Source: an uncultured Ruminococcus sp. (GTDB lineage: Bacteria; Bacillota; Clostridia; Oscillospirales; CAG-272). From it: a stretch of 64,000 nucleotides of DNA. Of this stretch, positions 6,375 to 61,332 are shown one piece after another; the first letter of the stretch is position 1; each line of letters opens with the position of its first letter. The position numbers and the translations under genes are program-made. Location: positions 78,412-142,411 of the forward strand of contig CAZBQN010000001.1 in NCBI GenBank assembly GCA_964494135.1, in the 5' to 3' direction. A model generated the notes under the pieces. That model ran no database searches, was not told where the DNA came from, and saw nothing but the letters and a program-made list of their open reading frames with translations.

Positions 6375-7010
6375 ATGAAGCAAGGGAGACTTAGGGAGCT
6401 GCGCAAGGAAAGAGGGCTGACGCTTGACGCGCTGGCAGAGCTGGTCGGTACAAGCAAGCAGACGGTACAGAGATATGAGACGGGTATCATAAACAATATT
6501 CCGAAGGAGAAAATAGAAGCTCTCGCCGCCGCGCTCGGAGTAACTCCCACTCTCTTGATGGGCTGGAGTGACGAGGATAGCGAGCCTGCTCCCTTTTATT
6601 ACAAAAACATCGCCAGAGTTTCGGTCAAAAGACTGCCGGTGCTGGGAGCTATCGCCTGCGGAAAACCCATACTTGCCACCGAAAGTCACGAAAACTTCGT
6701 CACCGCCGACGGCACCCTTGACGCCGATTTCTGTCTGTACGCTCAAGGTGACTCTATGACCGGAGCCAGAATTTACGACGGCGATATAGTATTCATACGC
6801 TCCCAAAGCTCGGTGGACAACGGCGAGATTGCCGCCGTCATTATAAACGACGAGGCGACCCTGAAGCGGGTGTATTACTATCCCGAGGACGGTAAGCTGA
6901 TTCTTTCACCCGAAAATCCGCGCTATGCCCCCTTGGTCTATATCGGCGAGGAGCTGGAAAGTATAAAAATCATCGGCAAAGCCGTAGCTTTCCAAAGCAG
7001 GATTTATTGA
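6375..7010 (+). CDS. XRE-HTH + S24 peptidase repressor (LexA/CI/HdiR-like, self-cleaving)
   Basis: 211 aa with an N-terminal HTH_3 domain (LTLDALAELVGTSKQTVQRYETG). The C-terminal S24 domain has the Ser (GDSMTG) and Lys (ATLKRV) dyad. The putative cleavage site is IA-C/G-KP (Cys-Gly, as in UmuD). Confidence 0.85.
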   Translation: MKQGRLRELRKERGLTLDALAELVGTSKQTVQRYETGIINNIPKEKIEALAAALGVTPTLLMGWSDEDSEPAPFYYKNIARVSVKRLPVLGAIACGKPILATESHENFVTADGTLDADFCLYAQGDSMTGARIYDGDIVFIRSQSSVDNGEIAAVIINDEATLKRVYYYPEDGKLILSPENPRYAPLVYIGEELESIKIIGKAVAFQSRIY

Positions 7011-7103
7011 AGGATTAAACTGTAGATATTTTCTATTGTCATAAGATTTGTGTCATAACATACTATTAGAAACATATCTCATTGAAAAATATTTTTTAAA
7101 ACC

Positions 7104-20097: not shown

Positions 20098-20126
20098 TTG
20101 ACAAACCTCGGTTTTTATTGTATAAT
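20098..20126 (+). promoter_or_regulatory. Consensus sigma-A promoter of tRNA-Glu
   Basis: TTGACA (20098-20103), 17 nt, TATAAT (20121-20126). The tRNA begins 19 nt after the -10. Confidence 0.7.
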
Positions 20127-20144: not shown

Positions 20145-20219
20145 GGCTCGTTGGTCAAGCGGCTAAGACACGGCCCTCTCAAGGCTGAAACGGGAGTTCG
20201 ATTCTCCCACGAGTCACCA
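20145..20219 (+). tRNA. tRNA-Glu (anticodon CTC), CCA encoded
   Basis: Hand-folded cloverleaf. Acceptor: GGCTCGT/ACGAGTC. D arm: GTC-AAGCGGCTAA-GAC. Anticodon arm: CGGCC-CT[CTC]AA-GGCTG. T arm: GGGAG-TTCGATT-CTCCC. It ends with A-CCA. Confidence 0.9.
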
Positions 20220-21093
20220 AGCAAAAAAGGACACCCGTAGCGGTGTCCTTTTTTGCTTGACGCTTCGCGGTCGATCAAACTCCCCTCGCGCACTTAGCTC
20301 AGCAGTAAAAGCGCACTTTGTGTCTCATAGCTTCACGGTCGCTCCGACCTTATCTGCGCGAATGGAGTTCGCAGTCCTGCCTGCACGGTCTCGCACGGCG
20401 AGACCCCCACGCCTTAATCTCGCTATCGGCTAAATGCTTTCCGCATAGCAAAGCCTGCCGCCTCAGCCTCCGGCAGGCAGATTCTCCCACGTCAGTCCGA
20501 GGGACTGCCACTTTTCTCTCTTTTCCCTTCTTCTATCGTCACAGACACCCGTAGCGGTGTCCTTTTTTGCTTGACGCTTCGCGGTCGATCGAACTCCCCT
20601 CGCGCACTTAGCTCAGCAATAAAAGCGCACTTTGTGTCTCACAGCTTCACGACCTCTCCGGCTTTTCCTGCGCGAATGGAGTTCGGAGCCCTGCCTGCAC
20701 GGTCTCGCCGTGCGAGACCACACAGCGACGGCTTCGTGTCGGCTCTATGCTACCCACAGAGAAACGGTTTTCACTTTTGCCTCCGGCAGGCAGATTCTCC
20801 CACGTCAGTCCGAGGGACTGCCACTTTTCTATCTTTTCCCTTCTTCTATCGTCACAGACACCCGTAGCGGTGTCCTTTTTGCTTGACGCTTCGCGGTCGA
20901 TCGAACTCCCATCGCGCACTTAGCTCGGCAATAAAAGCGCGCTTTGTGTCTCATAGCTTCACGACCGCTCCGTCCTTTCCTGCGCGAATGGAGTTCGCAG
21001 TCCTGCCTGCGCGGTCTCGCCGTGCGAGACCCCTCAGTGATGGCTTCGTGTCGGCTCTATGCTACCCACAGAGAAACGGTTTTCACTTTTGCC
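20200..21093 (+). repeat. Tandem array, about 313/314-bp unit, 3 copies (the first starts inside the tRNA T-loop)
   Basis: The anchor ACACCCGTAGCGGTGTCC occurs at 20231, 20545 and 20858. GATTCTCCCACG (tRNA positions 20200-20211) recurs at 20480 and 20793. Homology ends near 21093. Confidence 0.9.
20214..20258 (+). repeat. Left direct repeat (tRNA-Glu tail + terminator hairpin)
   Basis: TCACCAAGCAAAAAAGGACAC-CCGTAGCG-GTGTCCTTTTTTGCTT. This matches 23281-23325 except in the loop and for single-nt A/T-run differences. Confidence 0.8.
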
Positions 21094-21167
21094 CTTGGTT
21101 AACAGTTCCTACTGCCAAGTCTGTAGCGGACTTTCTCCGCCAAGTTGTAACGTGTGCCGAGCACACC

Positions 21168-21212
21168 AAGACACGAGGCGATGCCCGATTGAGCATCGCC
21201 TCGTGTCTTTAA
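21168..21212 (+). terminator. Strong hairpin terminator closing the repeat array
   Basis: 17-bp perfect stem AAGACACGAGGCGATGC (21168-21184) / GCATCGCCTCGTGTCTT (21193-21209), followed by T then an A/T-rich stretch. Confidence 0.55.
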
Positions 21213-21369
21213 ATTAAACACTCGTTTTTGTACTCGTGTCGCAATATCCTTTTCCTAATAGCAAAAGCGGATATTACCATGGTTTAGACCTTGCAATTTG
21301 AAATCGCATTTTTGAGCATTTTTCCGCGCCTTTTCTGTTCAAGCGGTGTAAATTTTGAGGAGCGAAAAA

Positions 21370-21705
21370 TTATAAATGCTTGTCAATAAGCTTTATCATT
21401 TCAATCGCCAGTTTTTTCTTGTTTTCGCTGAGTTTGCTGATTTCATTTGTTATTTCACAGCTCAGGTAATTTGGGTTTGACGGTGAGCTTTCTGTTATCA
21501 AGGATGCGATATCGCATTTGAGTGCTCCTGAAATTGCGCCCAATAAATCAAGACTTATTTTAGTGATGCCTCGCTCAACCTGACTGATGTAACCAATTGA
21601 AACATTAAGCTTTTCAGCAAGAGCTTCTTGCGTAATTTCAAGCTTTTTACGTTCCGTTTTGATTCTTGCTCCGATTAACTTATAATCAATACTCATTTCT
21701 CTCAC
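21370..21705 (-). CDS. XRE-family HTH transcriptional regulator
   Basis: 111 aa with an HTH_3 core (ITQEALAEKLNVSIGYISQVERGITKISLDLL). It is divergent from the 408-aa gene and is AT-rich. Confidence 0.8.
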   Translation of the reverse strand: MREMSIDYKLIGARIKTERKKLEITQEALAEKLNVSIGYISQVERGITKISLDLLGAISGALKCDIASLITESSPSNPNYLSCEITNEISKLSENKKKLAIEMIKLIDKHL

Positions 21706-21777
21706 CTCATTAAATAAGAATATAACATTACAAGCTAAAAATGAAGATACTGATAAGTTAAATTAAAGCTATAACTA

Positions 21778-21806
21778 TTGACAAAACTGTAGTTTGATGT
21801 TATAAT
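21778..21806 (+). promoter_or_regulatory. Consensus sigma-A promoter of the 408-aa gene
   Basis: TTGACA, 17 nt, TATAAT. It shares the 13-mer AACTATTGACAAA (21773-21785) with the tRNA-Glu promoter (20093-20105). Confidence 0.6.
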
Positions 21807-21828
21807 ACGTAAAAAAGGAGCGAGTGAA

Positions 21829-23055
21829 ATGGAAAATCTAAATGAAAAAACAGAATTTACCATGGCGGTTGAAAATCAAAGAAATAGGAACGGAGAAAAA
21901 TCTGAAATTTACAAGAGCGCTATTGAAGCGTGGGAAAATGCTGATTTTGAAGTCGCATACGATCTTTTCGAGCAGGTGATTAAACAATACCCTGAAAATG
22001 ATTTGGCTGGAATATTGTTTGCTATTTGCGGTAATATTCAGGATTATTTGGATGATGAGATTTTAGCGGATTCTTTTTGTGAGAGTTATCCAAAACTGTA
22101 CAAGGACGAATATTGCTTATCTTCCTATATGTGTTCTTATTTGGAAGAAACGGTAAATGATTTGCTTGAAAACTTAACGAAGGCATATAAGGGGAATTTA
22201 CCTCATCGTAAAATCGTTGATTTCGTTAGATCAACAGAAGCTGCAGTGAGGATTTTTGAAACAATCAAAAACGTTGCGGAACAGCGAAATGAAACTGACA
22301 GCTCTGAATATAAGGACTGCTTAAAATATCTCTGTATCTTATATCAGATAATGCAGAATAAATGCAAGTGCTCTGAGTGCGGCGGATACTGTAAATCTAG
22401 CGAATGGAAGATTAATGAGAATTGCGAAAAGAAACTGCAAATTGTAAAAGAGAAACTCGAAAATCTAAATGAAGATTTTTCTGTTAAGAAATACAAGGAT
22501 GACAAAGCTAAAAGTGAACAAAAGGCGGAAGAAGAGTATCAAAACAACACCGAATATGAAAATAGGGAAAGTATCCCCGAACAGAAAATTAAGGGCGCTA
22601 AAAAAATACTAAAGAAATCGTTTTATGGTTTGCTTGTAGGTGCGATTATTGCCTTCATATCTTTTATTAAGCCTGAATATTTTTCTCGTTTTCAAATTTT
22701 TTCGGTTGTTCTGTTGGTTACAAGTAGTATTATCGTTTTAGTAAGTTTTGCTACGATAATAGGACAGATATCGCGAAAACAGGTTTACTGTGGCAGATGC
22801 AAGAAGAAATTCAGGAAAGATGAAATTAAAGATATAAATATTTTGGGCGTTAAGGATGCAACGGATTCTCTTGTGACTATTATGTACGTCGCGGAGCTGA
22901 AATGTTCAGATTGCGGTAATTCTGTGTTAATAAAAAGAAAATTCAGTTTTTCAAAAAGCCTAAAGTATAATTTTGTAAGCAAAGAAGAAGCGATTGCTGA
23001 TATGAACGAGGCGGCAATTCGAGATTTTGAATCTTTTATCGACAGAACGTATTAA
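21829..23055 (+). CDS. Hypothetical membrane protein: helical/TPR-like N-domain, Cys cluster, coiled coil, 2 TM helices, C-terminal zinc ribbon
   Basis: 408-aa ORF with an AAGGAG RBS. It has CKCSECGGYC, then a Lys/Glu-rich segment. Hydrophobic stretches are FYGLLVGAIIAFISFI and IFSVVLLVTSSIIVLVSFATIIG. The C-terminus carries CGRC...CSDCG. No family was recognised. Confidence 0.7.
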   Translation: MENLNEKTEFTMAVENQRNRNGEKSEIYKSAIEAWENADFEVAYDLFEQVIKQYPENDLAGILFAICGNIQDYLDDEILADSFCESYPKLYKDEYCLSSYMCSYLEETVNDLLENLTKAYKGNLPHRKIVDFVRSTEAAVRIFETIKNVAEQRNETDSSEYKDCLKYLCILYQIMQNKCKCSECGGYCKSSEWKINENCEKKLQIVKEKLENLNEDFSVKKYKDDKAKSEQKAEEEYQNNTEYENRESIPEQKIKGAKKILKKSFYGLLVGAIIAFISFIKPEYFSRFQIFSVVLLVTSSIIVLVSFATIIGQISRKQVYCGRCKKKFRKDEIKDINILGVKDATDSLVTIMYVAELKCSDCGNSVLIKRKFSFSKSLKYNFVSKEEAIADMNEAAIRDFESFIDRTY

Positions 23056-23280
23056 AAAGAAGATCAAGCTTAAATCTCGGGGTTCTTCTTTGTTCAAGCT
23101 GTGTAATTTTTATAACCGTCAAGTTTTTTTCATTGATTTATGCGTAGTGATTTTTTGAAAATAAACATGTTCAAAACGACTTGAATGTTTTATCGTTTTA
23201 TTATAGCAAAACGCGATGCTAAAAATGAAAAGTATTGAATTTAAAATAGTAGAAAAAATTCGGATACCAGAGCATTTGCA

Positions 23281-23325
23281 TCACCAAGCAAAAAGGGCAC
23301 TACAAAAGAAGTGTCCTTTTTGCTT
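23281..23325 (+). repeat. Right direct repeat (copy of the tRNA-Glu tail + terminator)
   Basis: TCACCAAGCAAAAAGGGCAC-TACAAAAGAA-GTGTCCTTTTTGCTT. It also works as a bidirectional terminator between the 408-aa gene and the nuclease gene. Confidence 0.8.
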
Positions 23326-23462
23326 TATTTAATTACTTTTTCAACGTTAAAAGGGCTGAGTCAGCGGCTCAGCCCTCAAATCTTACCTATAAATCTTTTA
23401 CACTTCTGTCATTACAATTGCATCTATTTCCTAATGCATCTATATCCTACTGCGTCTATACT

Positions 23463-24947
23463 TTACCGTATCCATACCGCAAAAACGTACGCTGTGTCCT
23501 TCGTAACAATCATATTTGGCATTATACTGTCCATTTTTGCAAACCAGGAGATAATTAAGTCCCAAATAGGCTTGAAGAAGTCGTAAAGTGTTTCCCAGAG
23601 ATTTTTCGCTTCCTTCGGGACGGTTCTCGTAAATCCGCAGACGGTACAGGTTTCCTCTTGCATGCCGTCTTCGGTTTCGCCGGTTTTTTTGAAGCTGTGA
23701 TCTATCATGTGAATCTGCTCGCCGTAGGATAGTATTTTACCGCATTCGTCACAACAAATGTCGCCGGTGTAGCCGTCGGAGGTACAGGTTGCAGTCTTTT
23801 CATCTATCAAGGACGTAGATGGATGGGAACATTCGGGCGGAGTCACGGGATTATCGTCACCGTTGTCCGGCGGAGTCACGGGATTATCATCGCCGTTGTC
23901 CGGTGGGGTCACCGGGTTATCGTCGCCATTGTCCGGTGGGGTCACCGGGTTATCGTCGCCATTGTCTGGCGGGGTCACCGGGTTATCGTCGTCGCCATTG
24001 TCCGGTGGGGTCACCGGGTTATCGTCGGGGTCGGTGCCCTCCCTTGACGCGCTCGTGGGAGTGACAAGATCCTCGGGGACCTCCTCGCCGAAGAGCAGCC
24101 ACGCGTATTCGGGATAATCTATAAACACGTTTCTGTTGCCCTGAATTGCACCGACAACCTCGTTGCGCCCCATTTCCCAGGTGTCAACCGGGTCGAGAGC
24201 ACACCATTCGAGCAGTGTATCTATATCCCTGAAAACCGTGGTAATACTGCTGCACTTTGAATATTCGGTTCCGTATCTCACGTATACGTAAAGACATATA
24301 CGGGCGACGTCGCCCTTGACGTTGTCGAGGGGCTCAAAATAACCGCCGCTTACCCAGCCGCCTACCATGGAGTTAACGAGCGAAGATCCTACGGCAGTCT
24401 TGCCGCCAGTCACGTTTCCGTATTTTAAGTTGCCTCTGGTGCTGTTGAGCTTTGCGTCGGATGGGCGGATATGGTGCAGGTCGCTGCCTGCTCCGCTGGT
24501 ACCGAAGCCGCCGAGGCTCTGGGGCCAGACGTGCTCTCTGTTCCAGCCGACAGAGCCGCTGATGTAGTCAGAGCGTGTCACCGAAACGGAGGCGTAAATC
24601 AGATTTATCCGTCCGTCGCCCCCCTCGCAGTCGGTTTTTACAGCCATATCACGGCAATCGTTGTAGCTGGTCTTTTTTTTATGTGTGGAAGTCATAAGCG
24701 TGTTCAGGCTTTTGTAAAGCTCCCGGGACGTTAATTCCGAAAGTGCCTCGTATGTATACGAGCCGGTATAGTACTCGTCTGCGCTCGTTCCGTCAAGAGT
24801 CGTGCATACGACGTGCCTGGTGCCGGAGTTGTAAACCGAGGAATATTTCAGCGGTGCGCTCTCGCCCACGGCACATACGGGCAGGCTTGACAGGATTATC
24901 GCAAGGGTAATAATCAGCAAAACCGCTAAGCTTTTGAGTTTTTTCAC
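23463..24947 (-). CDS. Secreted endonuclease I / Bsn-like nuclease with a Pro-rich repeat stalk and a Cys-rich C-terminal region
   Basis: Endonuclease_1 motifs are present: NREHVWPQSLGG and DLHHIRPSD..LNSTRGN. A GTG start at 24947 follows AAGGAG and gives the signal peptide VKKLKSLAVLLIITLAIIL. Six NPVTPPDNGDD repeats are present. Confidence 0.8.
   Translation of the reverse strand: MKKLKSLAVLLIITLAIILSSLPVCAVGESAPLKYSSVYNSGTRHVVCTTLDGTSADEYYTGSYTYEALSELTSRELYKSLNTLMTSTHKKKTSYNDCRDMAVKTDCEGGDGRINLIYASVSVTRSDYISGSVGWNREHVWPQSLGGFGTSGAGSDLHHIRPSDAKLNSTRGNLKYGNVTGGKTAVGSSLVNSMVGGWVSGGYFEPLDNVKGDVARICLYVYVRYGTEYSKCSSITTVFRDIDTLLEWCALDPVDTWEMGRNEVVGAIQGNRNVFIDYPEYAWLLFGEEVPEDLVTPTSASREGTDPDDNPVTPPDNGDDDNPVTPPDNGDDNPVTPPDNGDDNPVTPPDNGDDNPVTPPDNGDDNPVTPPECSHPSTSLIDEKTATCTSDGYTGDICCDECGKILSYGEQIHMIDHSFKKTGETEDGMQEETCTVCGFTRTVPKEAKNLWETLYDFFKPIWDLIISWFAKMDSIMPNMIVTKDTAYVFAVWIR
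23834..24033 (-). repeat. In-frame 33-bp tandem repeat (about 6 copies, one of 36 bp) inside the nuclease gene
   Basis: GGGTCACCGGGTTATCGTCGCCATTGTCCGGTG-type units. They encode (D)DNPVTPPDNGD. Confidence 0.9.
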
Positions 24948-25104
24948 GTTCTTCTCCTTGTTTGCGTTTGCGCGAATGAATTCTTTTATAAATCTTATAA
25001 GATTATAACTCCGATTCAAATGCTTGTCAATACAAGAACAGGTTTTTCCGGAAAATCACCGAAATTTTTAAGAAATAAATTCTCACCCCCCGCGAACAAT
25101 ATGC

Positions 25105-25133
25105 TTGATTTATTGTTTCCCGTGTAGTATAAT
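25105..25133 (+). promoter_or_regulatory. Putative sigma-A promoter of the AraC-family gene
   Basis: TTGATT (25105-25110), 17 nt, TATAAT (25128-25133). Confidence 0.5.
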
Positions 25134-25176
25134 TAAGGAAAACGCGAAAAGTACGAGAAAAGACGAGGTAAAACGA

Positions 25177-26016
25177 ATGCCGCTGACGAAGCTGAATCCC
25201 GTGATACGGTCGGTATCGCTCTATGAGAGGATCAACAGGACCGACGAATGTATAGGCTACGACTCAAGAGTTATTTATATCGTTTCGGGCGACCTTACCG
25301 CAACAGTCGGCGGCGAGAAGCTCGGGCATATCGGCGCAGGTCAGCTGCTGTATATTCCCGCAGGCACACCCTACAAGCTGAAGGGGCAGTATCTGCGCGC
25401 GGTGGTCATCACCTTTGACCCCACGGACGAAAACCCCGAGCCAAAAGAGAAAATTCCACCGGTGCCAGTGGCGGATTTCAAGCCCGAGGTATGCCACCGT
25501 GTCGGGAATTTACCTCCCTTTGACAATGTGCTCACACTTTCCGGAATGGAGGGAGAGCGCGACGGGCTACTCAGAATGTGCGATATATTCACCTCGGCAG
25601 AGGGGTACTACCGCCAACAGCTGTCGGCTATGGTAAAGCTGTTGCTATTGAAAATTGCCGAGGCAAATGACGAGCACGCCCTGCCTGCAAGAATGGTGGA
25701 AAGCCTTGACAGCTATATCAGAGAAAACGTAGGCGAGGAGATATCCAACACCGAGCTCGGCGCGATATTCGGCTACCACCCCTTCTATATCAGCAAGCTG
25801 CTGAAGGAGAAAAAGGGGCAGACCCTGCATCAATATATAATATCCTATCGCTTCAAGCTGGCAAAGAGCAAGCTGGAAACAAGCGGTGAGAGCATCAACG
25901 AAATAGCAGCTGAATGCGGTTTCTCCGACCCGTCCTATTTCACAAAAGCCTTTAAGGCGAGCTTCGGTATGACGCCGAAGGAATACCGGAATAAATATAA
26001 AGAAGAGTTTATTTAG
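25177..26016 (+). CDS. AraC-family transcriptional regulator (cupin + HTH)
   Basis: The internal start MPLTKLNP follows a GAGG RBS. The C-terminus carries an HTH_18 domain (INEIAAECGFSDPSYFTKAFKASFGMTPKEYR). Confidence 0.85.
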   Translation: MPLTKLNPVIRSVSLYERINRTDECIGYDSRVIYIVSGDLTATVGGEKLGHIGAGQLLYIPAGTPYKLKGQYLRAVVITFDPTDENPEPKEKIPPVPVADFKPEVCHRVGNLPPFDNVLTLSGMEGERDGLLRMCDIFTSAEGYYRQQLSAMVKLLLLKIAEANDEHALPARMVESLDSYIRENVGEEISNTELGAIFGYHPFYISKLLKEKKGQTLHQYIISYRFKLAKSKLETSGESINEIAAECGFSDPSYFTKAFKASFGMTPKEYRNKYKEEFI

Positions 26017-39900: not shown

Positions 39901-39989
39901 AATTTCACCGCGGAGCGATTTCATCCGAACATCGTGAGGATTTCACCCGTCGAAGACGGATTTCACATTGGCGGGCGCCAATATTTCAC
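39901..39989 (+). repeat. Five direct (G)ATTTCAY motifs at 16-23 bp spacing
   Basis: Copies at 39902, 39918, 39940, 39960 and 39983, each followed by a different GC-rich 8-16-mer. The array ends in a 10-bp hairpin, GTGCTATGCA...TGCATAGCAC (39991-40019). Confidence 0.8.
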
Positions 39990-40146
39990 TGTGCTATGCA
40001 ATCGGAGAGTGCATAGCACCTTGCCACCGGCGTGCTTTTGCACAAAAGGACTTGTCAATTTTTTTGCAATTTTCTTATTTATTTTTTTGTTCTTTTATGT
40101 TATACTGTATATGTTAAATATATGAGGACGAGGAATGGACTGAAAA

Positions 40147-61164: not shown

Positions 61165-61262
61165 GCCAAGCAGAATAGATCAGGGGCGCCGAAAGGCTGA
61201 GACAGCATACGCTGGACCCTTTAACCTGATACGGATAATGCCGTCGTAGGGAGATTTGGATT
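61165..61262 (+). ncRNA. TPP (THI-box) riboswitch
   Basis: Conserved cores are present: GGGGCGCC...GCTGAGA...ACCCTTTAACCTGATACGGATAATGCCGTCGTAGGGA. It is located in the 5' leader of a thiamine transporter gene. Confidence 0.9.
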
Positions 61263-61332
61263 TTATGACCTTAAATCATACCGCACGGAGTCTGTCTCTG
61301 CGCGGTAATTTTATTTAAGGAGGTTCGTTTTT

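What the first reader, a model, noticed from the sequence alone, without database searches (positions are those of the whole stretch)
20200..21093. Three tandem ~313-bp units seeded inside the tRNA-Glu T-loop, with tRNA-like fragments and a swapped central cassette
**Periodicity.** The period is exact: ACACCCGTAGCGGTGTCC occurs at 20231, 20545 and 20858. The 12-mer GATTCTCCCACG of the genuine tRNA T-arm/acceptor (20200-20211) recurs at 20480 and 20793. Each unit therefore begins with a pseudo-tRNA 3' end followed by the terminator-like hairpin.

**tRNA-like fragments.** Units also contain D-arm-like TTAGCTCAGC...AGCGC and T-arm-like GGAGTTCG..GTCC fragments. None of these folds into a cloverleaf by hand.

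**Conserved hairpin.** The stem GGTCTCG-N5-CGAGACC is conserved at 20387, 20701 and 21013. Its loop is CACGG in copy 1 and the reverse complement, CCGTG, in copies 2 and 3. This is what inversion of the palindromic hairpin would give.

**Variable cassette.** The roughly 60 nt after the hairpin are unrelated between copy 1 (20406-20466) and copies 2 and 3.

**Coding potential.** ORFs in the array are repeat translations (Arg/Ser/Pro-rich, no RBS).

**Candidate explanations.** One is serial site-specific insertions of a miniature non-coding element. Another is an array of structured RNAs transcribed from the tRNA promoter. A third is unequal-crossover amplification.
Basis: seen in the sequence. 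Interest (0 to 1): 0.65.

Follow-up and report, generated by a model that had tools for sequence, protein, structure and literature searches.

The report
Amplified recombination scar behind tRNA-Glu
Just downstream of a tRNA-Glu gene, a ~313-bp non-coding segment is present three times in tandem; it is most likely a leftover of DNA insertion at the tRNA gene that was later copied locally, not an array of RNA genes.

Summary
tRNA-Glu(CTC) lies at 20145-20219 and is followed by a 2.8-copy, ~313-bp tandem array at 20230-21093. A 12-mer from the tRNA T-arm and acceptor stem recurs at both internal junctions.

- **Anatomy.** There are three copies of a terminator-plus-body segment and two copies of a 77-nt junction module. 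The module holds a pseudo T-arm, a decayed terminator and a CT-rich tract.
It is a diverged homolog (57% identity, p about 0.001).
- **Against an RNA array.** There is no Rfam or tRNA-like hit, no internal promoter-like site and no protein homolog. A strong terminator (-29.9 kcal/mol) separates the tRNA from the array.
- **Wider context.** A second copy of the tRNA 3' end plus terminator sits at 23281-23326. It brackets a 3.07-kb segment containing the array and low-GC cargo genes that the one syntenic relative lacks.
- **The relative.** It has a single diverged unit and the same junction module.
- **Homologs elsewhere.** None were found.

Best reading: a scar of site-specific or illegitimate recombination at the tRNA 3' end, locally amplified by unequal homologous exchange (CIME-like relic). 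Interest is low to moderate.

The parts
20098..20126 (+). Consensus sigma-70 promoter of the tRNA gene (TTGACA-17-TATAAT)
   Evidence: 12 of 12 matches. The same promoter is present in relative L043.
20145..20219 (+). tRNA-Glu(CTC) with encoded CCA; identical in relatives L043 and L045
   Evidence: (59.8 bits)
20200..20211 (+). Core c: GATTCTCCCACG (T-loop, 3' strand of the T-stem, first three acceptor bases), the segment repeated at the unit junctions
20218..20259 (.). Strong bidirectional terminator of the tRNA (18-bp stem, A6/T6). Its right two-thirds (from 20230) is the start of repeat unit 1.
   Evidence: -29.9 kcal/mol, z = -9.5
20230..20466 (+). Unit 1 body: terminator hairpin Y, conserved body B (to 20405) and diverged cassette V1 (20406-20466)
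20467..20543 (+). Junction module 1: J (GCCTCCGGCAGGCA), pseudo T-arm core c' (20480-20491), 52-nt trailer x with hairpin CAGTCCgagGGACTG (20493-20507) and a CT-rich tract
   Evidence: (D5)
20544..20779 (+). Unit 2 body (Y, B, V2)
20780..20856 (+). Junction module 2 (J, c' at 20793-20804, x); 76 of 77 identical to module 1
20857..21093 (+). Unit 3 body (Y, B, V2'). Homology stops at 21093, and no junction module follows.
20590..20685 (.). 17-nt inverted repeat CGAACTCCccTCGCGCA / TGCGCGAatGGAGTTCG with 62 nt between the arms (unit 2). The equivalents are 20276-20371 in unit 1 and 20902-20997 in unit 3. The arms contain the T-arm-like GGAGTTCG in both orientations.
   Evidence: (I12-I25)
20701..20719 (.). 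Perfect palindromic hairpin GGTCTCGC-N3-GCGAGACC, also at 20387-20405 and 21013-21031. The loop is inverted in copy 1 (ACG versus CGT).
21168..21209 (.). Perfect 17-bp hairpin between the array and the XRE gene
   Evidence: I9; -32.6 kcal/mol
21370..21696 (-). XRE-family HTH regulator: low-GC cargo, absent in syntenic relative L043
21829..23055 (+). 408-aa orphan protein with its own consensus promoter (21778-21806). It is absent in L043, and a 71% homolog sits in an unrelated context (L054).
23281..23326 (+). Second copy of the tRNA 3' end plus terminator (TCACCAAGCAAAAAGGGCAC...GTGTCCTTTTTGCTT). Together with 20214-20259 it forms an imperfect direct repeat that brackets 3.07 kb.
   Evidence: score 43 versus null maximum 26; -23 kcal/mol

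Best explanation
The array is non-coding relic DNA. It was created by recombination at the 3' end of tRNA-Glu(CTC) and then amplified locally.

**Step 1 (inferred).** At least one insertion event at the T-loop/acceptor region displaced a tRNA-3'-end-like fragment and its terminator downstream. This produced the junction module J-c'-x. A functional 3' end with a strong terminator was kept or restored next to the tRNA.

**Step 2 (inferred from the anatomy).** The terminator-plus-body segment then lay on both sides of the junction module. Unequal homologous (Campbell-type) exchange between those copies expanded the locus to 3 bodies and 2 junction modules.

**Step 3.** The copies have since drifted by 6-10%, with patchy gene conversion and one palindrome loop inversion.

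**Wider setting.** The interval from the tRNA to the AraC-family regulator gene at 25105-26016 (hereafter AraC) is an insertion hotspot. A second tRNA-3'-end/terminator copy at 23281 bounds a 3.07-kb segment holding the array and low-GC cargo genes (XRE, orphan 408-aa protein).

**Present function.** Probably none beyond stacked terminators that insulate the downstream genes from a consensus-strength tRNA promoter.
For: **Shown**
- The tRNA-derived 12-mer (17 of 21 when extended) sits exactly at both unit junctions and nowhere else in 64 kb.
- The sequence after it (x, 52 nt) is unrelated to the tRNA trailer, although the flanking unit sequence is 92-100% identical. This indicates a discrete replacement rather than drift.
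- There are 3 terminator/body copies but only 2 junction modules, and no core follows unit 3.
- The two junction modules and the adjacent terminator are nearly identical (2 differences in 132 nt). The next 131 nt differ at 14 sites (Fisher p = 0.017).
- A second, significant copy of the tRNA 3' end plus terminator lies at 23281-23326.
- GC content is 56.8% in the array, 41.6% in the islet and 49-52% in the flanks.

**The only syntenic relative, L043 (LysR 73% identical)**
- It has the identical tRNA and lacks XRE, the 408-aa gene and endonuclease I. Its tRNA-to-AraC interval is about 1.2 kb, against 4.9 kb in the window.
- It has one diverged unit homolog (interior z = 2.8, p = 0.006) that ends in GATTCTCC followed by an A-tract and a terminator.
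- It has the J-c' module (21 of 25, p = 0.017) just upstream of a TermY-like hairpin that matches 28 of 32 positions.

**Negative results consistent with a relic**
- No integrase was found among the window ORFs scanned.
- No promoter-like site lies inside the array, and there are multiple terminators.
- There is no Rfam or tRNA hit and no protein homolog of the array ORF.

**Established background**
- Integrative elements duplicate tRNA or tmRNA 3' ends.
- They decay to integrase-less elements flanked by att sites (CIMEs) and pile up in tandem (PMC5704250, PMC3146451, PMC9897764).
Against: - No autonomous element, integrase or attP with homology to the unit was found in phages, plasmids, IMG/VR, GTDB representative genomes or JGI metagenomes. 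The large-collection searches used exact 18-19-mers only.
- The 12-nt core is short, and its T-arm sequence is generic: the 20-mer occurs in phage tRNA-Asp, tRNA-Ala and tRNA-Glu genes.
- The expected terminal att core after unit 3 is not detectable.
- The 7-nt T-loop portion differs between the tRNA and c' (TTCGATT versus GCAGATT). The junction is therefore not a clean att product.
- There is only one comparator genome, and its alignments are weak (p about 0.006-0.02).
- The better conservation of the junction block could reflect selection rather than recent conversion.
Confidence: 0.5

Rival explanations
1. Purely local tandem duplication by replication slippage or unequal crossing-over, with no mobile element. 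The first duplication happened to start in the tRNA T-loop, so copies 2 and 3 begin with a dead tRNA 3' fragment. Everything else is drift.
For: - The copies are head to tail with a near-constant period.
- The left breakpoint of the homology lies inside a palindromic terminator arm at 20230. Such arms are typical sites of illegitimate recombination (my own knowledge).
- No integrase or donor element was found.
Against: - After the 12-mer, the copies carry a 52-nt segment unrelated to the 18-nt tRNA trailer, while the neighbouring sequence is 92-100% identical. Drift cannot produce that.
- The compact arrangement of CCA, A-tract and terminator is shared with L043 and with the 23281 copy. The trailer x is therefore not the ancestral trailer.
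- The periodic region is 2.76 units, not an integer.
- The J-c' module is also present in L043, upstream of a TermY-like hairpin.
- The locus is an indel hotspot with low-GC cargo.
Confidence: 0.22
2. An active miniature non-autonomous integrative element (about 313 bp, essentially an attP with flanks). An integrase encoded elsewhere in the genome excises and re-integrates it in trans. The internal junctions of the tandem copies would be intact attP-like sites.
For: - The junction block, from 66 nt upstream to 118 nt downstream of the core, is far better conserved between copies than the body (1.1% versus 10.7% divergence).
- The units contain T-arm half-site-like GGAGTTCG motifs in both orientations.
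- The J-c' module is conserved in L043.
- The CIME concept is established (PMC5704250).
Against: - Integration of such a circle at the tRNA core would place x next to the tRNA and destroy the acceptor stem. That arrangement is not what is seen.
- No terminal core follows unit 3.
- No integrase was found in the window.
- No other copy was found in the window or in the public collections searched.
- The bodies are equidistant at 6-8% divergence, so there has been no recent multiplication.
Confidence: 0.12
3. A functional cis-regulatory or structured RNA/DNA array. Examples would be stacked terminators or insulators, or small RNAs, selected to shield the XRE/408-aa module from the tRNA promoter, or binding sites for the adjacent XRE regulator.
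For: - Both strands fold somewhat better than shuffles (z = -2.0 and -2.9).
- The + strand has six terminator-like hairpins.
- The terminator hairpin is maintained between 20223-20254 and 23290-23320 through one compensatory change, C-G to U-A.
- The tRNA promoter is a perfect consensus.
Against: - There is no Rfam match.
- No promoter-like site lies inside the array.
- Read-through past a -29.9 kcal/mol terminator is unlikely.
- Substitutions in the stems break pairs rather than compensate. Examples are G to A at 20277 in unit 1 and the extended hairpin, which is absent in unit 1.
- No homologs are available for a covariation test.
Confidence: 0.1

Closest known systems
CIMEs (cis-mobilizable elements) and tandem accretion of integrative elements at tRNA/tmRNA genes. 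Examples are the ICESt1/CIME tandems of Streptococcus thermophilus and the ssrA genomic-island arrays of Dehalococcoides.
   Same: - Direct repeats of the 3' part of the target RNA gene mark the unit borders.
- The insertion point is in the T-loop region.
- The units lack integrase genes.
- Several units lie head to tail downstream of an intact RNA gene.
- The locus is variable between relatives (PMC5704250, PMC3146451).
   Different: - The units here are 313 bp with no genes at all, whereas described cases are kilobases long.
- The units are paralogs of each other, whereas 'no duplicate islands' were seen in Dehalococcoides.
- The core is only 12 nt (17 of 21 when extended), and a terminal core is missing.
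- No cognate integrase or autonomous relative is known.
Partial tRNA genes (tRNA 3' fragments) left by integration of mobile elements
   Same: A T-arm/acceptor fragment downstream of an intact tRNA gene, plus a second copy of the extreme 3' end with its terminator 3 kb away (PMC9897764).
   Different: The fragments here are much shorter than the typical 40-50-nt repeats. They are followed by a decayed terminator, and one type has been duplicated together with its flank.
Ordinary bacterial tandem duplications or minisatellite-like arrays maintained by RecA-mediated unequal exchange
   Same: Head-to-tail copies, a regular period, mosaic or gene-conversion-like patterns of shared substitutions, and assembly breaks at the edges.
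   Different: - The array boundary coincides with a tRNA T-loop.
- Junction-specific foreign sequence is present.
- The copies are already 6-10% diverged.
Loop inversions in perfect palindromes (quasipalindrome template-switch mutations; small hairpin inversions known from chloroplast spacers). This comparison rests on my own knowledge and was not checked in the literature here.
   Same: The stem is identical, and the loop is the exact reverse complement (ACG versus CGT) between copy 1 and copies 2 and 3.
   Different: Nothing notable. It is a single mutational event, not evidence of a programmed switch.

Membership tests
Rfam RNA families, including tRNA and tRNA-like | Covariance-model match at or near the gathering score | tested here: not met
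   Only the genuine tRNA scores (59.8 bits). At E <= 10, nothing inside 20230-21093 is above noise.
tRNA pseudogene | A cloverleaf detectable with relaxed thresholds, reproducibly in each unit | tested here: not met
   ARAGORN finds nothing at 90% or 80% of its default thresholds. At 70% it gives two inconsistent hits that are not at equivalent positions in the units.
CIME / decayed integrative element at a tRNA gene | Element bounded on both sides by direct repeats of the target gene's 3' part (attL/attR) | tested here: inconclusive
   - The 12-mer (17 of 21 when extended) is at both internal junctions.
- A 46-nt imperfect repeat of the tRNA end plus terminator is at 23281.
- No significant core follows unit 3.
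CIME / decayed integrative element at a tRNA gene | No integrase or transfer genes inside the element | tested here: met
   The units are non-coding. The neighbours are LysR, XRE, an orphan protein, endonuclease I and AraC. No recombinase was found among the other window ORFs scanned.
CIME / decayed integrative element at a tRNA gene | Sequence relationship to an autonomous element (ICE, IME or prophage) with an integrase of the same site specificity | tested here: not met
   No homolog was found in phages or plasmids, IMG/VR, GTDB genomes or JGI metagenomes. The large-collection searches used exact seeds only.
CIME / decayed integrative element at a tRNA gene | Excision as a circle when a cognate integrase is supplied | not testable with these tools
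   Needs read-level data or an experiment.
Tandem duplication by unequal homologous exchange | Head-to-tail paralogous copies with n bodies and n-1 novel joints | tested here: met
   3 Y-B-V bodies and 2 J-c'-x joints.
Tandem duplication by unequal homologous exchange | Copy-number polymorphism among strains | not testable with these tools
   The only other assemblies of this organism (Logan contigs L001-L004) break at or near the array edges. The species has one NCBI contig.
MITE / REP / BIME-type dispersed repeats | Many dispersed copies in the genome | tested here: not met
   There is no other copy in the 64-kb window. Outside the array only 12-15-nt matches occur, and the two best belong to the 23281 terminator copy. 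No copy was found in the other collections. The rest of the genome could not be searched.
Intrinsic terminators | GC-rich hairpin followed by a U-tract | tested here: met
   - Consensus scan hits at 20493, 20544, 20806 and 20857.
- Fold energies are -29.9 kcal/mol (20218-20259), -11 (internal copies) and -23 (23286-23325).
Protein-coding gene | Homologs, or an ORF with translation signals | tested here: not met
   The 98-aa ORF at 20571-20867 has no hit among 5.8 billion proteins. The ORFs start with TTG inside the terminator and have no RBS.

The most novel reading that the evidence does not exclude
The 313-bp unit is a gene-less 'att-only' integrative mini-element. A trans-acting recombinase would excise and re-insert it at the tRNA-Glu T-loop, so the internal junctions are functional attP-like sites. 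This would explain why the 184-nt junction block is about ten times better conserved between copies than the body. It would also explain why the J-c' module survives in a relative whose coding sequences are only 73-75% identical at the nucleotide level.
Probability: 0.12. Interest if true: 0.6.

Novelty: new member of a known kind. Interest (0 to 1): 0.27.

Why it matters
As a relic, the array mainly documents an insertion hotspot at tRNA-Glu(CTC) in a poorly sampled uncultured Clostridia lineage. It also shows how att scars with their terminators can be amplified into a tandem array. That is useful for annotation, because such arrays produce spurious ORFs and break short-read assemblies. It would matter more only if the units proved mobile. 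A 313-bp gene-less integrative element would be far below the size of described CIMEs.

Tried and rejected
**Searches for known families or coding potential**
- (1) Rfam at gathering thresholds and at E <= 10 found nothing in the array.
- (2) Relaxed ARAGORN found no reproducible pseudo-tRNA.
- (3) A protein search with the 98-aa array ORF found no homolog, so neither a coding role nor homologous DNA could be traced this way.

**Searches for homologous DNA elsewhere**
- (4) blastn of a unit against phage and plasmid collections gave no match.
- (5) The exact 18-mer CTGCGCGAATGGAGTTCG gave 6 hits in IMG/VR and 26 in GTDB genomes. All were seed-only chance matches in unrelated taxa.
- (6) The exact 19-mer terminator gave 6 chance hits in JGI metagenomes. 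One lies in an unrelated high-GC repeat.
- (7) The junction 19-mer and the tRNA-end 28-mer gave no hits in IMG/VR.
- (8) The T-arm 20-mer gave at least 120 hits in IMG/VR. Nearly all lie inside complete phage tRNA-Asp, tRNA-Ala or tRNA-Glu genes, so they say nothing about att sites.

**Searches for syntenic relatives and a local recombinase**
- (9) Synteny was sought through LysR homologs. Only L043 (with L044 and L045) keeps the tRNA next to LysR. Homologs at 65-67% identity have other neighbours.
- (10) A fourth pseudo-core after unit 3 (21100-21165) looked plausible by eye but was not significant (p = 0.68, 0.21 and 0.12).
- (11) The reverse complement of V1 against V2, tested as a cassette inversion, was not significant (p = 0.15).
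- (12) No integrase was found among the neighbouring and other large window ORFs.

**Test of a chimeric origin for unit 2**
- (13) A chimeric origin of unit 2 from units 1 and 3 was considered. The shared-substitution pattern alternates with no single breakpoint.
Full report
**1. What is there**

ARAGORN and Rfam agree on a single tRNA gene in the window, tRNA-Glu(CTC) at 20145-20219 on the + strand. A perfect TTGACA-17-TATAAT promoter at 20098-20126 drives it. Tandem Repeats Finder reports an array at 20230-21093 with period 312, 2.8 copies and 89% matches.

- The terminator-like hairpin GACACCCgtagcGGTGTC followed by a T-run starts at 20230, 20544 and 20857.
- GATTCTCCCACG occurs at 20200, 20480 and 20793 and nowhere else in 64 kb, even with one mismatch allowed. 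Chance expectation is 0.24, and 0 of 100 shuffles reach three matches.
- The palindrome GGTCTCG-N5-CGAGACC sits at 20387, 20701 and 21013, with the loop reverse-complemented in copy 1.

The spacing is 314 and 313 nt, so it is regular but not exact.

The copies differ from one another by 6-8%. Independent Logan contigs from two sequencing runs stop at or near the edges of the array. The array is therefore not an assembly loop.

**2. Refined anatomy**

Aligning the copies shows that the array is not simply three equal units. It contains three copies of a "body" and two copies of a 77-nt "junction module".

The body consists of:
- the terminator hairpin Y;
- about 150 nt of conserved sequence B;
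- a roughly 60-nt cassette V.

The junction module consists of:
- J (GCCTCCGGCAGGCA);
- the tRNA-like core c';
- a 52-nt trailer x, which holds the hairpin CAGTCCgagGGACTG and a CT-rich tract.

The layout is: tRNA(core c)-trailer-[Y B V1]-[J c' x]-[Y B V2]-[J c' x]-[Y B V2']-unrelated DNA.

Further details:
- The tRNA similarity at the junctions extends to 17 of 21 positions (D5) and resumes as AGTC after a 2-nt insertion.
- Each body also carries the reverse complement of the T-arm 11-mer GGGAGTTCGAT. This is part of a 17-nt inverted repeat with 62 nt between its arms.
- I looked for a fourth core after unit 3. The resemblance seen by eye is not significant (p = 0.68, 0.21 and 0.12).

**3.

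The "variable cassette" is not unrelated between copy 1 and copies 2 and 3. V1 is 57% identical to V2 and V3, well above shuffled controls (p = 0.0005-0.0035). It is a strongly diverged homolog.

The loop "inversion" is real: ACG versus CGT in an 8-bp perfect stem. It is a single-event mutation class expected at perfect palindromes (my own knowledge of quasipalindrome template switching).

The D-arm-like and T-arm-like fragments do not add up to a pseudo-tRNA. ARAGORN finds nothing down to 80% of its thresholds, and at 70% it gives only inconsistent hits. The Rfam tRNA model finds nothing in the array at E <= 10.

**4. Not RNA genes, not protein genes**

The tRNA is followed at once by an 18-bp stem with a U6 tail (-29.9 kcal/mol, z = -9.5). 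Each junction adds two more terminator-like hairpins. The promoter scan finds no site on either strand inside the array.

A ~419-nt stretch spanning roughly one and a third units folds only modestly better than shuffles (z = -2.0 on the + strand, -2.9 on the - strand). That signal comes from palindromes that are invariant between copies. Where substitutions fall in predicted stems, they break pairs rather than compensate. Examples are the change at 20277 in unit 1 and the extended hairpin, which is absent in unit 1.

The longest array ORF has no homolog among 5.8 billion proteins. It starts with TTG inside the terminator.

**5. Context: an insertion hotspot**

The left neighbours are LysR and AdhE. 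To the right lie an XRE regulator, an orphan 408-aa protein with its own consensus promoter, endonuclease I, AraC and a TrmA-like methyltransferase. No integrase was found there or among 20 further window ORFs, which are housekeeping genes.

A short-word BLAST of the array region against the window revealed a second copy of the tRNA's extreme 3' end plus terminator at 23281-23326 (TCACCAAGCAAAAAGGGCAC...GTGTCCTTTTTGCTT).
- It scores 43, against a null maximum of 26.
- It folds into a 16-bp terminator (-23 kcal/mol).
- By inspection, one stem position is changed on both sides.

Together with 20214-20259, this copy forms an imperfect 46-nt direct repeat that brackets 3.07 kb. That segment contains the array, XRE and the 408-aa gene.

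GC content is 56.8% in the array, 41.6% in the islet (21094-25100) and 49-52% in the flanks.

**6. The only informative relative**

The organism belongs to a sparsely sampled Clostridia lineage. It is known from one 182-kb NCBI contig and a few Logan runs.

Among the LysR homologs, only L043 (73% identical protein) keeps the tRNA beside LysR in a contig that reads through the region. L044 and L045 are the other contigs that keep it, but both end inside the tRNA. More distant homologs have other neighbours.

L043 has the identical tRNA and promoter. Its tRNA-to-AraC interval is about 1.2 kb instead of 4.9 kb, and it lacks XRE, the 408-aa gene and endonuclease I. Within that interval:
- (i) The first ~90 nt after the tRNA align with the start of the window's unit.
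- (ii) The interior of the first ~190 nt aligns weakly with the unit body (z = 2.8, p = 0.006).
- (iii) That block ends in GATTCTCC followed by an A-tract and a terminator.
- (iv) Further on, CGTCAGGCTGTATTCTCCTCCCGTC matches the window's J-c' module at 21 of 25 positions (p = 0.017). It lies just upstream of GGACACCCTCGCGGTGTCC plus a T-run, which matches the window's terminator Y at 28 of 32 positions.

The unit, the junction module and stacked copies of "tRNA-3'-end plus terminator" are therefore older than the split of the two lineages. The triplication is specific to the window's lineage.

**7. How it most likely arose**

The trailer x after the core is unrelated to the tRNA's own trailer, although the adjoining sequence is 92-100% identical between copies. 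The compact arrangement of CCA, A-tract and terminator is shared by the window, L043 and the 23281 copy. The x trailer therefore came from elsewhere. This points to recombination with foreign DNA at the T-loop/acceptor region, as integrative elements do (PMC9897764, PMC3146451, PMC5704250).

Three bodies with two joints is what unequal homologous (Campbell-type) exchange produces once the body lies on both sides of a joint.

The two junction modules and the adjoining terminator differ at 2 of 132 positions. The next 131 nt differ at 14, and the last 52 at none (Fisher p = 0.017). The three bodies are roughly equidistant (92.1, 92.1 and 93.8% identity), and their shared substitutions alternate without a single breakpoint.

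Together this describes an old array with later conversion, or selection, around the joints. I therefore favour a composite explanation: an att-type scar that was amplified locally.

This is inference. No donor element, integrase or excision product was seen.

**8. Searches for relatives of the unit**

Nothing homologous was found in:
- phage and plasmid collections;
- IMG/VR;
- GTDB representative genomes;
- JGI metagenomes.

All seed hits were chance matches. The large-collection scans need exact 18-19-mers, so diverged copies would have been missed.

The T-arm 20-mer is generic. At least 120 IMG/VR hits lie almost entirely inside complete phage tRNA-Asp, tRNA-Ala or tRNA-Glu genes. The core therefore need not derive from this particular tRNA.

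**9. Verdict**

The structured-RNA reading is disfavoured. The mini-element and unequal-crossover readings each explain part of the anatomy.

The closest known phenomena are CIME-type relics and tandem accretion at tRNA or tmRNA genes. The array fails or leaves open several membership features: a terminal att core, a cognate integrase and an autonomous relative. It is best called a new example of a known kind of scar, unusual for its small, gene-less, paralogous units.

Interest is low to moderate. The one reading that would raise it is an active 313-bp "att-only" element, to which I give about 12%.

Noticed in passing
window 21778-23055: The 408-aa protein has a perfect TG-extended consensus promoter and no Pfam, PHROG, PADLOC or NCBIfam family. 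It has only two homologs in 5.8 billion proteins. The 71% homolog (L054) lies in a different gene context, so this looks like a mobile orphan cargo gene.
   Followed up: partly
window 21168-21209: A perfect 17-bp hairpin (-32.6 kcal/mol) lies between the array and the 3' end of the XRE gene. It is preceded by CACCAAG, which echoes the tRNA 3' end, but the resemblance is not significant.
   Followed up: partly
L044 position 1 and L045 position 1 (equivalent to window 20199 and 20211): Two independent metagenome contigs from relatives end inside the tRNA T-arm, at the two edges of the 12-mer core. This could reflect repeats or strain polymorphism that start there, or simply multi-copy tRNA sequence. 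It is unresolved.
   Followed up: partly
L043 about 6810-7030 (- strand): In the relative, the DNA between the tRNA relics and AraC carries a strong promoter (7026-6998). After it comes a short hydrophobic ORF (MPMFVTWELLFLLAGFIIALLTYIDNHNKKN) that resembles small membrane toxins or holin-like peptides of Firmicutes.
   Followed up: no
window 39913-39991 (-) and 61172-61269 (+): Rfam hits above the gathering score: Gut-1 RNA (56.6 bits) and a TPP riboswitch (75.2 bits). Both are unrelated to the finding.
   Followed up: no
L038 1490-1760: An unrelated high-GC metagenome contig carries a tandem repeat in which the same 19-mer (GACACCCGTAGCGGTGTCC) occurs twice, 108 bp apart. It is a coincidental match.
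   Followed up: partly
window 6375-7010: A LexA-like protein (HTH_3 plus Peptidase_S24) lies among housekeeping genes. No associated prophage genes were seen among the ORFs scanned.
   Followed up: no
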